A stretch of DNA of 64,000 nt from the NCBI RefSeq assembly GCF_009914755.1, contig NC_060936.1. One strand, written 5' to 3'. Every line of letters begins with the position of its first letter. The stretch's first letter is position 1. This stretch comes from the human T2T-CHM13v2.0 reference genome, Homo sapiens. Shown piece after piece: positions 10,605-33,637 of this stretch. The notes under the pieces are model-generated. The model worked only from the letters and a program-made list of their open reading frames with translations, did not search any database and had not been told where the DNA came from. The position numbers were made by a program, and so were the translations under genes.

Positions 10605-13600
10605 TGGGTTCCAAGATGGCCAAATAGGAACAGCTCCAGTCTATAGCTCCCAGCGTGAGCGACACAGAAGATTGGTGATTTCTGCATTTCCAACTGAGGT
10701 ACTGGGTTCATCTCACTGGGGCTTGGCAGACAGTGGGGACAGCCCATGGTGCAGGGTGGGGCATTGCCTCACCAAGGAAGCGCAAGGGATTGGGGAATTC
10801 CCTTTCCTAGCCAAGGGAAGCTATGACAGACGGTACCTGGAAAATCAGGACACTCCCACCCTAATACTGCACTTTTCCAATGGTCTTAGCAAATGGCACA
10901 CCAGGAGATTATATCCCATGCCTGGCTCGGAGGGTCCCATGCCCACAGAGCCTTGCTCACTGCTAGCACATCAGTCTGAGATCAAACTGCAAGGTGGCAG
11001 CGAGGCTACGGGAGGGGCATCCACCATTGCTGAGGCTTGAGCAGGTAAACAAAGCTGCCAGGAAGCTCAAACTGGGTGGAGCCCACTGCAGCTCAAGGAG
11101 GCCTGCCTGCCTCTGTCGACTCCACCTCTGAGGGCAGGGCATAGCTGAACAAAATGCAGAAGAAACTTCTGCAGACTTAAACATCCCTGTCTGACAGCGT
11201 GGGAGAGAGTAGTGGTTCTCTGAGCATGGAGTTTGAGATCTGAGAATAGACAGACTGCCTCCTCTAGTGGGTCCCTGAGCCCGAGTAGCCTAACTGGGAG
11301 ACACCTCCCAGTAGGAGCTGACTGACACCTCATACAGCCAGGTGTCCCTCTGAGATGAAGCTTCCAGAGGAAGGATCAGGCAGCAACATTTGCCATACTG
11401 CAATATTTGCTGTTCTGCAGTCTCCACTGGTGATACCCAGGCAAACAGGGACTGGAGTGCACCTCCAGCAGCCTCCAGCAGACCTGCAGCTGAGGGTCCT
11501 GACTGTAAGAAGGAAAACGAACAAACAGAAAGGACATCCAAACCAAAACACCATCTGTGTGTCACCATCATCAAAGACCAATGGTAGATAAAATCACAAA
11601 GATGGGGAGAAACCAGAGCAGAAAAGCCAAAAATTCTAAAAATCAGAGTGCCTCTTCTCCTCAAAAGGAATGCAGCTCCTCACCAGCAACAGAACAAAGC
11701 TGCATGGAGAATGACTTTGATGAGTTGAGAGAAGATGGCTTCAGGCGATTGGTAATAACAAACTTCTCCGAGCTAAAGGAGGAGTTCGAACCCATCGCAA
11801 AGAAGCTAAAAACCTTGAAAAAAGATTAGACAAATGGCTAACTAGAATAAACAGTGTAGAGAAGACCTTAAACGACCTGATGGAGCTGAAAACCATGGCA
11901 CGAGAACTACATGATGCATGCACAAGATTCAGTAGCCAATTTGATCAAGTGGAAGAAAGGGTGTCAGGGATTGAAGATCAAATGAATGAAATGAAGCCAG
12001 AAGAGAAGTTTAGAGAAAAAAGAGTAAAAAGAAATGAATGAAGCCTCCAAGAAATGTGGGACTATGTGAAAAGACCAAATCTATGTCTGACTGGTGTACC
12101 TGAAAGTGATGGGAAGAATGGAACCAAGTTGGAAAACACTCTTCAGGATATTATCCAGAACTTCCCCAACATAGCAAGGCAGGCCAACATTCAAATTCAG
12201 GAAATACAGAGAATACCACAAAGATAATCGTCAAGAAGAGCAACTCTAAGACACATAATTTTCAGATTCATCAAAGTTGAAATGAAGGAAAAAATGTTAA
12301 GGGCAGCCAGAGAGAAAGGTCAGGTTACCCACAAAGGGAAGCCCATCAGACTAACAGCGGATCTCTCGGCAGAAACTCTACAAGCCAGAAGAGAGTGGGG
12401 GCCAATATTCAACATTCTTAAAGAAAAGAATTTCATATCAACCCTGAATTTCATATCCAGCCAAACTAAGCTTCATAAGTGAAGGAGAAATAAAATCCTT
12501 TACAGACAAACAAATGCTGAAAGATTTTGTCACCACCAGGCCTGCCTTACAAGAACTCCTGAAGGAAGCCGTAAACATGGAAAGGAACAACCAGGACCAG
12601 CCACTGCAAAAACATGCCAAGTTGTAAAGACCGTTAATGCTAGGAAGAAACTGCATCAACTAATGAGCAAAATAACCAGCTAACATCATAATGACAGGAT
12701 CAAATTCACACATAACAGTATTAACCTTAAATGTAAATGGGCTAAATGCTCCAATTAAAAGACACAGACTGGCAAATTGGATAAAGAGTCAAGACCCATC
12801 ATTGTGCTGTGTTCAGGAGATCCATTTACCTGCAGAGACACACATAGGCTCAAAATAAAGGGATGGAGGAAGATCTACCAATCAAATGGAAAACAGAAAA
12901 CAGCAAGGGTTGCAATCCTAGTCTCTGATAAAACAGACTTTAAACCAACAAAGATCAAAAGAGACAAAGAAGGCCATTACATAATGGTAAAGCGATCAAT
13001 TCAACAAGAAGAGCTAACTATCATAAATATATATGCACCCAAAAACAGGAGCACCCAGATTCATAAAGCAAGCCCTTAGAGACCTACAAAGAGACTTAGA
13101 CTCCCACACAATAATAATGGGAGACTTTAACACCCCACTGTCAACATTAGACAGATCAATGAGACAGAAAGTTAACAAGGATATCCAGGAATTGAACTCA
13201 GCTCTGCACCAAGCAGAACTAATAGACATCTACAGAACTCTCCGCCTCAAATAAACAGAATATACATTCTTCTCAGCACCACATCGCACTTATTCCAAAA
13301 TTGACCACATAGTTGGAAGTAAAGCACTCTTTAGCAAATGTAAAAGAACAGAAATTATAACAAACTGTCTCTCAGACCACAGGGCAAACTAGAACTCAGG
13401 ATTAAGAAACTCGCTCAACTACATGGAAACTGAACGACCTGCTCCTGAATGACTACTGGGTACACAACGAAATGAAGGCAGAAATAAAGATGTTCTTTGA
13501 AACCAAGGAGAACAAAGACACAACATACCGGAATCTCTGGGACACATTTAAAGCAATGTGTAGAGGGAAATTTATAGCACTAAATGCCCACAAGAGAAAG

Positions 13601-15402
13601 CAGGAAAGATCTAAAACCGACACCCTAACATCACAATTAGAAGAACTAGAGAAGCAAGAGCAAACACATTCAAAAGCTAGCAGAAGGCAAGAAATAACTA
13701 AGATCAGAGCAGAACTGAAGGAGATAGAGACACAACAAAACCCTTCAAAAAATCAATGAATCCAGGAGCTGGTTTTTTGAAAAGATCAACAAAATTGATA
13801 GACAGCTAGCAAGACTAATAAAGAAGAAAAGAGAGAAGAATCAAATAGACTCAATAAAAAATGATAAAGGGGATATCACCACTGAGCCCACAGAAATACA
13901 AACTACCATCAGAGAATACTATAAACACCTCTATGCAAATAAACTAGAAAATCTAGAAGAAATGGATAAATTCCTGGACACATACACCCTCCCAAGACTA
14001 AACCAGAAAGAAGTTGAATCCATGAATAGACCAATAACAGGCTCTAAAATTGAGGCAATAATTAATAGCCTACCAACCGAAAAAAGTCCAGGACCAGACA
14101 GATTCACAGTCACATTCTACCAGAGGTACAAAGAGGAGCTGGTACCATTCCTCCTGGAACTATTCCAATCAATAGAAAAAGAGAGAATCCTCCCTAACTC
14201 ATTTCAGGAGGCCAGCATCATCCTGATACCAAAGCCTGGCAGAGACACAACAAAAAAAGAGAATTTTAGACCAATATCCCTGATGAACATCGATGCAAAA
14301 ATTCTCTATAAAATACTGGCACACCAAATCCAGCAGCACATCAAAAAGCTTATCCACCATGATCAAGTTGGCCTCATCCCTGGGATGCAAGGCTGGTCCA
14401 ACATACACAAATCGATAAACGTAATCCATCATAGAAACAGAACCAAAGACAAAAACCACATGATTATCTCAATAGATGCAGAAAAGGCCTTTGACAAAAT
14501 TCAACAGCCCTTCATGCTAAAAACTCTCAATAAACTAGGTATTGATGGGACGTACCTCAAAATAATAAGAGCTATCTATGACAAACCCACAGCCAATATC
14601 ATACTGAATGGGCAAAAACTGGAAGCATTCCCTTTGAAAACTGGCACAAGACAGGGATGCCCTCTCTCACCACTCCTATTTAACATAGTGTTGGAAGTTC
14701 TGGCCAGGGCAATCAGGCAGGAGAAAGAAATAAAAGGTATTCAATTAGGAAAAGAGGAAGTCAAATTGTACTGGTTTGCAGATGACATGATTGTATATTT
14801 AGAAAAGCCCATTGTCTCAGCCCAAAATCTCCTTAAGCTGATAAGCAACTTCAGCAAAGTCTCAGCATACAAAATCAATGTGCAAAAATCACAAGCATTC
14901 CTATACACCAATAACAGACAAACAGAGAGCCAAATCATGAGTGAACTCCCATTCACAATTACTTCAAAGAGAATAAAATACCTAGGAATCTAACCTACAA
15001 GGAATGTGAAGGACCTCTTCAAGGAGAACTACAAACCACTGCTCAACAAAATAAAAGAGGACACAAACAAATGGAAGAACATTCCATGCTCATGGATAGG
15101 AATAATCAATATTGTGAAAATGGCCATACTGACCAAGGTAATTTACAGATTCAGTGCCATCCCCATCAAGCTACCAATGACTTTCTTCACAAAATTGGAA
15201 AAAACTACTTTAAAGTTCATATGGAACCAAAAAAGAGCCCACATTGCCAAGTCAATCCTAAGCCAAAAGAATGAAGCTGGAGGCATCACGCTACCCGACT
15301 TCAAACTGTACTACAAGACTCCAGTAACCAAAATAACATGGTACTGGTACCAAAAAAGAGCCCTCATTGCCAAGACAGTCCTAAGGCAAAAGAACAAAGC
15401 TG
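10605..15402 (+). mobile_element. L1PA (about PA5-PA7) element A: complete 5'UTR, ORF1 and ORF2 through RT, 3'-truncated, inactive
   Basis: Starts GGTTCCAAGATGGCCAAATAGG. ORF1 fragments at 11601-12630; ORF2 343-aa fragment with QGCPLSP and FADD. Several stops and frameshifts; no 3'UTR or poly(A). Confidence 0.95.
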
Positions 15403-33500: not shown

Positions 33501-33637
33501 CTGTACCCACTGTCCGACAAGCCCCAATGAGATGAACCCATTACCTAAGTTGGAAATGCAGAAATCGCCCATCTTCTGCATTGCTCACACTGGAAGCTGT
33601 GGACTGGAGCTGTTCTTATTTGGCCATCTTAGAACCT
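27525..33637 (-). mobile_element. Full-length L1PA (about PA5-PA7) element B, inactive
   Basis: 5'UTR ends GGCCATCTTAGAACC. ORF1 248-aa fragment; ORF2 fragments of 442 and 228 aa, with FADD changed to FADN. 3'UTR and T tail at 27523-27560. No TSD shared by its own two flanks. Confidence 0.96.

What the first reader, a model, noticed from the sequence alone, without database searches (positions are those of the whole stretch)
10605..33637. Two inverted L1PA copies 12 kb apart share private inactivating lesions
Seen: elements A (+) and B (-) share many departures from the L1 consensus as I recall it. These are [37 protein letters not shown] and KVSAYK; the same frameshift giving [10 protein letters not shown]; the same short deletions (GCAAACTAGAACTC, ACTCGCTCAACTACATGG); and the same ORF1 insertion (AATTTCATATCAACCC). 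Known: L1 cis-preference makes two independent retrotranspositions from a parent frameshifted in both ORFs unlikely. Inference: DNA-level inverted duplication or long gene conversion. The ~4.8-kb inverted repeat could also drive recurrent inversion of the 15.4-27.5 kb spacer.
Basis: partly seen in the sequence, partly recalled or inferred. Interest (0 to 1): 0.7.

Follow-up and report, generated by a model that had tools for sequence, protein, structure and literature searches.

The report
Neighbouring L1s homogenised by gene conversion
Two dead, oppositely oriented L1 retrotransposons upstream of the human NK-cell gene KLRB1 share breaks found in no other L1 copy searched, likely because they swapped sequence by gene conversion and probably once flipped the 12 kb between them millions of years ago, an ordinary but well-recorded kind of event.

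Summary
A (10607-15360, +) and B (33636-27523, -) are 93.2% identical over 4766 columns. They share 8.1 rare derived sites per kb, against 0.20 (maximum 1.6) in 1597 pairs of other copies. Exact motifs over their shared lesions occur only in A and B genome-wide.

It is not a uniform duplication. No flank is copied and both 5' ends are natural L1 starts. Divergence is layered: a 2-kb ORF2 tract differs by 2.4% at non-CpG sites, against 5.8% outside it.

Best reading: two separate insertions of one sublineage, homogenised by non-allelic gene conversion at least twice. A crossover probably inverted the spacer: A's 5' flank matches the flank after B's poly(A) at 11/13 (p about 0.007 for one pair, 15 pairs tried), and half of the LTR-like repeat at B's 5' end is missing. 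Bonobo and orangutan gene models imply the human orientation, so any inversion is likely old.

Side finding: the neighbouring pseudogene LOC374443 lacks the first exon that New World monkey orthologues have, and uses an in-frame exon from the spacer. New member of a known kind.

The parts
10607..15360 (+). L1 element A: natural 5' start, 3'-truncated at L1 position about 4760, no poly(A)
27523..33636 (-). L1 element B: full length (6114 bp) with poly(A); no target-site duplication between its own two flanks
13109..15093 (+). younger conversion tract in A (B positions 2510-4492): 2.4-2.5% non-CpG difference to B, 96.6% raw identity
29145..31127 (-). younger conversion tract in B
12434..12437 (+). 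shared 4-bp ORF1 insertion (B about 31805-31808); older layer; exact motif only in A and B genome-wide
13384..13417 (+). shared 4-bp and 8-bp ORF2 deletions (B about 30848 and 30819); both together only in A and B
13736..13736 (+). shared +1 ORF2 frameshift (B 30500); the inserted C is private, a +1 A here recurs in 74 other copies
10589..10601 (+). candidate target-site duplication, copy 1, just before A's 5' end
   Evidence: 11/13 match to 27512-27524
27512..27524 (-). candidate target-site duplication, copy 2, right after B's poly(A) (swapped flank)
   Evidence: null 21/3000 random windows, 18/3000 shuffles; 15 flank pairs tried
15345..15402 (+). junction piece at A's broken 3' end: back-jump copy of L1 positions about 4616-4673, entered through a short microhomology
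15403..27511 (.). 12.1-kb spacer, inferred to be inverted relative to the state at insertion; holds LOC374443 exon 17534-17601 and RNU6-700P
   Evidence: inference; annotation supplied with the finding
33637..33990 (+). half of a 630-680 bp LTR-like repeat abutting B's 5' end; the other half is not found in the window
8846..10552 (-). A3: separate 5'-truncated L1 of the same sublineage with its own target-site duplication (10553-10569 / 8791-8807, 15/17); not part of the exchange

Best explanation
A and B are two oppositely oriented L1 copies of one sublineage that share private lesions in two layers, likely because they inserted separately, then exchanged sequence by non-allelic gene conversion at least twice, and probably crossed over once, which would have inverted the 12-kb spacer. 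Steps: (1) inferred: L1 P inserts at 10.6 kb with target-site duplication p, and L1 Q inserts into an LTR-like repeat at 33.64 kb. (2) shown as a pattern, mechanism inferred: an early exchange spreads about 0.5% of private changes, including the ORF1 insertion, over the 5' part; one long old tract and many tracts of 50 bp or less fit equally well. (3) shown as a pattern, mechanism inferred: a later tract of about 2 kb copies ORF2 with its deletions and frameshift, at about 46% of the sublineage's age. (4) inferred: a crossover makes A = P 5' / Q 3' and B = Q 5' / P 3', which puts p after B's poly(A). (5) inferred: Q's 3' end, its duplication and half the LTR were lost, either by one deletion or because Q inserted 3'-truncated into a break.
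For: Shared rare sites 8.1/kb vs 0.20/kb null; lesions private genome-wide. Tract: 47 differences in 1920 columns inside vs 5.75% outside, 0 of 500 permutations, ratio 0.46 vs minimum 0.58 in 351 outgroup pairs. Against 12 same-sublineage copies, inner A-B is 2.45% vs sib-sib 5.33% (minimum 4.07, 66 pairs); outer 5.36% vs 5.9% (minimum 4.99, 15 pairs); tail 7.8%. The outer region still holds 9 shared events in 1734 columns; full independence fits 8-17 log-likelihood units worse than one old layer. No flank duplicated. Both 5' ends sit at the start seen in sibling copies. Swapped duplication 11/13, the second-best of 15 flank pairs, behind only A3's own. The LTR-like repeat is cut at B's 5' end and its other half is at neither 3' end. 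One crossover plus one loss explains the missing LTR half, A's missing 3' end, B's lack of its own duplication and the swapped match together. The junction piece carries the base of 4 of 5 siblings at B position 4651, while A and B share the other base; this fits Q being independent and later overwritten (one site).
Against: The target-site match is short, has two C/G transversions, and is p about 0.007 for one pair but about 0.1 after 15 pairs; the reciprocal duplication is missing, so the swap is seen on one side only. No orthologous DNA was read. In the outer region A-B divergence is nearly that of unrelated siblings, strict shared substitutions are only 4 in 1694 columns, and one pair of A or B with an outgroup copy also reached 4. 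Shared-site density does not differ significantly between inner and outer regions (p = 0.32). The outgroups were best hits to A or B with only 40 candidates scored per search, so they are a biased sample. The direction of conversion is unknown.
Confidence: 0.58

Rival explanations
1. Same two insertions and the same conversion, but no crossover: the spacer never flipped. B deleted half the LTR when it inserted, A lost its 3' end separately, and the 11/13 match is chance.
For: All conversion evidence fits without an inversion. The match is only about p 0.1 after 15 pairs. Bonobo and orangutan models imply the human orientation.
Against: Needs two independent losses plus a chance match at the one position where a swap predicts it.
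Confidence: 0.24
2. Local RNA-templated copy: one element is a reverse-transcribed copy of its already broken neighbour, mobilised in trans and pasted, 3'-truncated, into a nearby double-strand break; conversion came later.
For: An exact L1 5' start implies an RNA template. 3' truncation, no poly(A), no duplication and lost target DNA match the features listed for endonuclease-independent insertions (PMC1920257, passages). A homogeneous old layer fits the outer region.
Against: The junction piece differs from both A and B at position 4651 and agrees with siblings. In PMC1920257, 18 of 21 such insertions were also 5'-truncated by 3000 bp or more. The tail 4493-4759 shares 0 sites in 257 columns. 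Cis preference, and the lack of known local hopping by L1, are recalled, not tested.
Confidence: 0.08
3. DNA-level inverted duplication of P's first 4.76 kb by replication template switching, followed by one conversion tract.
For: Shared sites run from B position 133 to 4402. A = B at 81 of 84 subfamily-variable columns. The templated junction piece resembles a replication-repair scar.
Against: The second junction would have to fall within a few bases of the natural L1 5' end by chance, with no flank copied. Outer divergence is close to that of unrelated siblings. Agreement at subfamily columns is also seen for A3 and siblings (84-95%).
Confidence: 0.06
4. The pair still toggles the spacer, giving a recurrent human inversion polymorphism.
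For: Recurrent human inversions are reported between inverted repeats more than 90% identical, 654 bp to 24.2 kb long (PMC6748972, passages); this pair is 93.2% over 4.77 kb.
Against: Even the best tract differs by 2.5% (95% CI 1.8-3.2) and the longest perfect run is 156 bp, so there has been no recent homogenisation. The locus is not among 49 human-chimpanzee loci in PMC2603318 Table S1.
Confidence: 0.05

Closest known systems
Retrotransposon recombination-mediated inversion, L1 type (L1-RMI; Lee et al. 2008, PMC2603318; passages and Table S1 read)
   Same: Inverted L1PA pair around a spacer of similar size (mean 14,294 bp for human-specific L1-RMI); chimeric elements whose target-site duplications no longer match; accompanying deletion in 12 of 49 cases.
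   Different: Not a human-chimpanzee difference as far as seen: absent from the 49 loci, with bonobo and orangutan models implying the human orientation. Inferred from one genome only. It carries a long conversion record; the term 'gene conversion' has 0 occurrences in that paper's main text.
Non-allelic gene conversion between neighbouring transposable elements (Fawcett and Innan 2019, PMC6598467; first quarter of the text and passages read; Aleshin and Zhi 2010 seen only as cited there)
   Same: Shared derived sites, mosaic identity, close neighbours (raised rates under 10 kb are reported for Alu).
   Different: L1 rather than Alu or LTR; a tract of about 2 kb; two layers; spread of inactivating lesions.
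Endonuclease-independent (non-classical) L1 insertion (Sen et al. 2007, PMC1920257; passages read)
   Same: 3' truncation, no poly(A), no duplication and target deletion fit the inferred element Q.
   Different: Q keeps its full 5' end; a later deletion gives the same picture, as that paper warns.
Twin-primed (5'-inverted) L1 (model recalled, not from a call)
   Same: A3 and A lie head to head, and A ends near the L1 position where A3 begins (355-bp overlap).
   Different: A3 has its own duplication (15/17) and differs from A by 8.6% in the overlap tail, so they are separate insertions.

Membership tests
Non-allelic gene conversion between TE copies | Derived variants shared by the two copies and absent from other family members | tested here: met
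Non-allelic gene conversion between TE copies | Patchy identity with tract boundaries | tested here: met
   0 of 500 permutations; lower than 351 of 351 outgroup pairs; p = 9e-6, boundaries chosen from the data
Non-allelic gene conversion between TE copies | Unique flanks not copied | tested here: met
Non-allelic gene conversion between TE copies | Pre-conversion state seen at the orthologous locus of an outgroup | not testable with these tools
   no other primate genome held (G000 has no relatives here)
L1 recombination-mediated inversion (L1-RMI) | Two same-family elements in opposite orientation at the ends of the segment | tested here: met
L1 recombination-mediated inversion (L1-RMI) | Target-site duplications no longer match within elements but are swapped between them | tested here: inconclusive
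   none between B's own flanks; A 5' / B 3' 11/13 (p about 0.007 single, 15 pairs tried); reciprocal side missing
L1 recombination-mediated inversion (L1-RMI) | Opposite spacer orientation in an outgroup genome | not testable with these tools
   indirect only: bonobo P0002 and orangutan P0007 models use the spacer exon in sense, i.e. the human orientation
DNA-level (segmental) inverted duplication | Copied unit includes unique flank, or has breakpoints unrelated to element ends | tested here: not met
DNA-level (segmental) inverted duplication | Uniform divergence along the copy | tested here: not met
   (later conversion could mask this)
Twin-primed L1 (A plus A3) | One duplication enclosing both pieces | tested here: not met
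   A3 has its own 15/17 duplication; no match at A's 3' end
Endonuclease-independent L1 insertion (element Q) | 3' truncation, no poly(A), no duplication | tested here: met
   under the inferred chimera model
Endonuclease-independent L1 insertion (element Q) | Reconstructed pre-insertion site excludes a later deletion | not testable with these tools
   needs orthologues
L1PA5-7 subfamily label | Diagnostic match to a curated subfamily model | not testable with these tools
   no repeat library; only relative age measured (sib-sib non-CpG 5.3-5.9%); 'L1PA6/7-like' is a recalled guess

The most novel reading that the evidence does not exclude
The L1 pair rebuilt an NK-ligand gene. The loss beside Q removed the ancestral first exon and promoter of the CLEC2E-like gene (intact in New World monkeys and sifaka, now pseudogene LOC374443), and the inversion swung a spacer exon into sense orientation. 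That gave apes a replacement in-frame N-terminus (seen in bonobo and orangutan models) and reversed 12 kb of DNA upstream of KLRB1.
Probability: 0.12. Interest if true: 0.62.

Novelty: new member of a known kind. Interest (0 to 1): 0.3.

Why it matters
It is a clean, readable record of ectopic exchange between old L1 neighbours. Shared inactivating lesions need not mean a shared source element or a duplication, and conversion can make such copies look about half their age. The swapped target-site duplication offers a way to spot inversions older than the human-ape split from one genome. If the link to the CLEC2E-like gene holds, it would explain how catarrhines lost or remodelled a lectin gene next to KLRB1. 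Without that link it is an ordinary fossil rearrangement with no shown function.

Tried and rejected
Twin priming of A with A3: rejected, A3 has its own duplication. A3 as donor or copy of B: rejected, A3-B differ by 5.1% like siblings, with 1 strict shared site in 1573 columns. Subfamily-diagnostic variants as the explanation: rejected. A third copy with the same lesions elsewhere: none in the pattern searches.

Paralogues of the flanks, to rebuild the empty site: none found with four queries (at most 40 candidates scored each). Using exon 17534-17601 as an ancestral orientation marker: it looked like a CLEC2 first exon, but it shows no similarity to CLEC2D exon 1 and New World monkey and sifaka proteins have a different N-terminus, so it says nothing about the ancestral orientation. 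A genome-wide search for that ancestral exon gave 0 candidates, which is uninformative. Long young conversion patches in the outer region: tracts of 200 bp or more fit at least 6 log units worse.

Literature for this locus: searches listed no paper on an inversion or conversion here (listings seen). PMC1193534 passages do not mention it. No gene-name hit in the readable supplements of PMC9712629 (one file unread) or PMC11092980; these were gene-name searches, not coordinate searches. The supplements of PMC7605249 and PMC12058530 could not be read, and two papers asked for by id were not held. Any of these could list the locus, so absence from print is not shown.
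Full report
**What is there.** A self-comparison of the window gives one long inverted pair: A 10607-15360 (+) against 33636-28878 (-), 93.2% over 4766 columns. B runs on to a poly(A) at about 27523 and is a full 6114-bp L1. A stops at L1 position about 4760. A third L1 piece, A3 (8846-10552, -), is 91.2% identical to B's 3' end. Overall A-B identity is only slightly above what other copies give: 89-93% to B, and 92% for A's best full-length hit among 40 of 27,977 candidates scored, B not being among those scored. 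The case therefore rests on shared rare changes, not on percent identity.

**Shared changes.** I used 58 other L1 copies from the same genome: 29 best hits to a 601-bp piece of A and 29 to B. Eight short 5' pieces were added later. A and B share 30 rare derived columns in 3683 non-CpG columns (8.1/kb). Pairs of other copies share 0.20 +- 0.28/kb, at most 1.58 in 1597 pairs; A or B with another copy, at most 1.88 in 116 pairs. Genome-wide patterns agree. Both ORF2 deletions together occur only in A and B among 5 hits. The ORF1 insertion motif is exact in 2 of 5 hits. The frameshift motif is exact in 2 of 76 hits, the other 74 having an extra A there. The second (mutual best hits) fails locally: for A 12750-13350, B was not among the 40 scored hits of 94-95%.

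**The sharing is layered.** Non-CpG differences are 47 in 1920 columns (2.4%) in B positions 2510-4492 and 5.75% outside. None of 500 permutations reached this contrast, and the inside/outside ratio (0.46) is below all 351 outgroup pairs (minimum 0.58). Against 12 copies of the same sublineage, sibling pairs differ by 5.33% inside (minimum 4.07) while A-B differ by 2.45%. Outside, siblings differ by 5.9% and A-B by 5.36%. In the last 267 bases A-B differ by 7.8%, with 0 shared sites in 257 columns. The outer region still carries 9 shared events in 1734 columns, including the ORF1 insertion. A homogeneous old layer (log-likelihood -418.4) fits as well as tracts of 10-50 bp (-417.8 to -419.8), better than tracts of 200 bp or more (-424.6 or worse), and better than independence (-425.9 to -435.6). 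Under a stricter rule (no other carrier) the outer count is only 4 in 1694 columns, and one pair of A or B with an outgroup copy also reached 4, so the older layer is less secure than the tract. The tract's age is about 46% of the sublineage's age. With recalled primate divergences (human-orangutan about 3%, human-macaque about 6%), this puts the insertions near the ape-monkey split and the tract near the human-orangutan split; these dates are inference.

**Junctions.** Both A and B begin within a few bases of the 5' start seen in sibling copies, in unrelated flanks, which points to two RNA-mediated insertions. Of 15 flank pairs, two stand out. A3's own flanks match at 15/17 (null 9/3000 and 0/3000), which makes A3 a separate insertion and rules out twin priming with A. 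A's 5' flank (10589-10601) matches the flank right after B's poly(A) (27512-27524) at 11/13 (null 21/3000 and 18/3000). B's own flanks do not match. B's 5' flank is the right half of a 630-680 bp LTR-like repeat (87-88% to five other copies); the left half is found at neither 3' end nor elsewhere in the window at that identity. A's broken end carries a piece of about 58 bp copied from about 140 bases upstream in L1. At one site that piece agrees with 4 of 5 siblings and with A3, but not with A or B.

**Mechanism.** The simplest account is two insertions, P and Q, conversion in two layers, and one crossover that makes A = P5'/Q3' and B = Q5'/P3', plus loss of Q's 3' end with half the LTR. Shown: shared private lesions, the tract, absence of copied flanks, the half LTR, the separate origin of A3. 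Inferred: independent insertion, conversion as the process, the crossover, all dates. I put conversion at about 0.85 and the inversion at about 0.7 given conversion, about 0.58 jointly. Rivals are listed with their evidence.

**The neighbouring gene.** LOC374443 exons 53926 onward are 75-90% identical in protein to marmoset CLEC2E-like proteins. Marmoset, capuchin and sifaka proteins (4 of the 14 hits) begin with a conserved 27-residue segment. It is not found in the window by tblastn, ungapped scan (best score 25) or frameshift-tolerant scan (best 22 against self scores of 100-116). The human exon 17534-17601 in the spacer reads in frame into exon 53926, and the same N-terminus is in bonobo P0002 and orangutan P0007 (2 of 14 hits). 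Assuming those models are colinear on their assemblies, bonobo and orangutan share the human orientation. The three macaque models, the siamang model and the squirrel monkey model start elsewhere; for macaque P0010 this is the GC-rich region near 48 kb. Squirrel monkey shows that a model can lack the segment without proving that the exon is lost. Whether the loss beside Q removed the ancestral exon is untested.

**Comparison with what is known.** Lee et al. 2008 (PMC2603318; passages and Table S1) describe L1-mediated inversions with chimeric elements, mismatched duplications and frequent deletions; this locus is not among their 49. Fawcett and Innan 2019 (PMC6598467; first quarter and passages) review conversion between neighbouring elements. 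Giner-Delgado et al. 2019 (PMC6748972; passages) report recurrence for inverted repeats above 90% identity. Sen et al. 2007 (PMC1920257; passages) define endonuclease-independent insertions. Author names and years are partly recalled. Searches for this locus (supplements) found no description, but key supplements were unreadable.

**Verdict.** Real, and correctly spotted. It works like known non-allelic conversion and meets the three features of it that I could test. Membership among L1-mediated inversions is likely but unproven. New member of a known kind; interest 0.3, rising to about 0.6 only if orthologues tie the rearrangement to the loss of the CLEC2E-like first exon.

Noticed in passing
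window 17534-17601 and 53926-57291 (LOC374443): Labelled a CLEC2D pseudogene, but its exons match CLEC2E-like proteins that are intact in marmoset, capuchin and sifaka. Their first-exon segment is not found in the window, and a spacer exon supplies an in-frame N-terminus also seen in bonobo and orangutan models.
   Followed up: partly
window 55369-55547 and P0002, P0007: The human exon has two in-frame stops. Bonobo and orangutan models skip its first part and give open 169-175 aa lectin proteins, so the gene may not be dead in all apes.
   Followed up: no
window 8791-8846: A3 carries about 25 extra bases between two A-runs before its duplication, which looks like a short 3' transduction; its source was not searched.
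   Followed up: no
window 8846-10552, 10607-15360, 27523-33636: Three L1s of one narrow sublineage (12 of 58 sampled copies belong to it) sit within 25 kb, the first about 680 bp upstream of the annotated KLRB1 start; A3 and A are only 54 bp apart.
   Followed up: partly
window 33668-33770: An annotated LOC374443 exon lies in the half LTR just outside B's 5' end, with no AG before it. It may be a start driven by B's antisense promoter or by the LTR (inference from recalled L1 biology).
   Followed up: no
G000:C18:54870579-54870625, C1:62442928-62442974, C4:77137231-77137277: Three other L1 copies appear to carry the same 8-bp deletion without the 4-bp one, likely a recurrent microhomology deletion.
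   Followed up: no
window 5038-5633: A fourth L1 3' end on the minus strand inside KLRB1 intron 1, 87% to A3 and B, with no excess of shared sites.
   Followed up: partly
window 21188-23465 and 36455-36850: Older L1 remnants (65-69% to A and B), one interrupted by an Alu-like repeat.
   Followed up: no
window 47160-47320 and 47829-47924: Pieces of a second, more diverged LTR-like repeat (70-76% to the same family), overlapping lncRNA LOC105369728.
   Followed up: no
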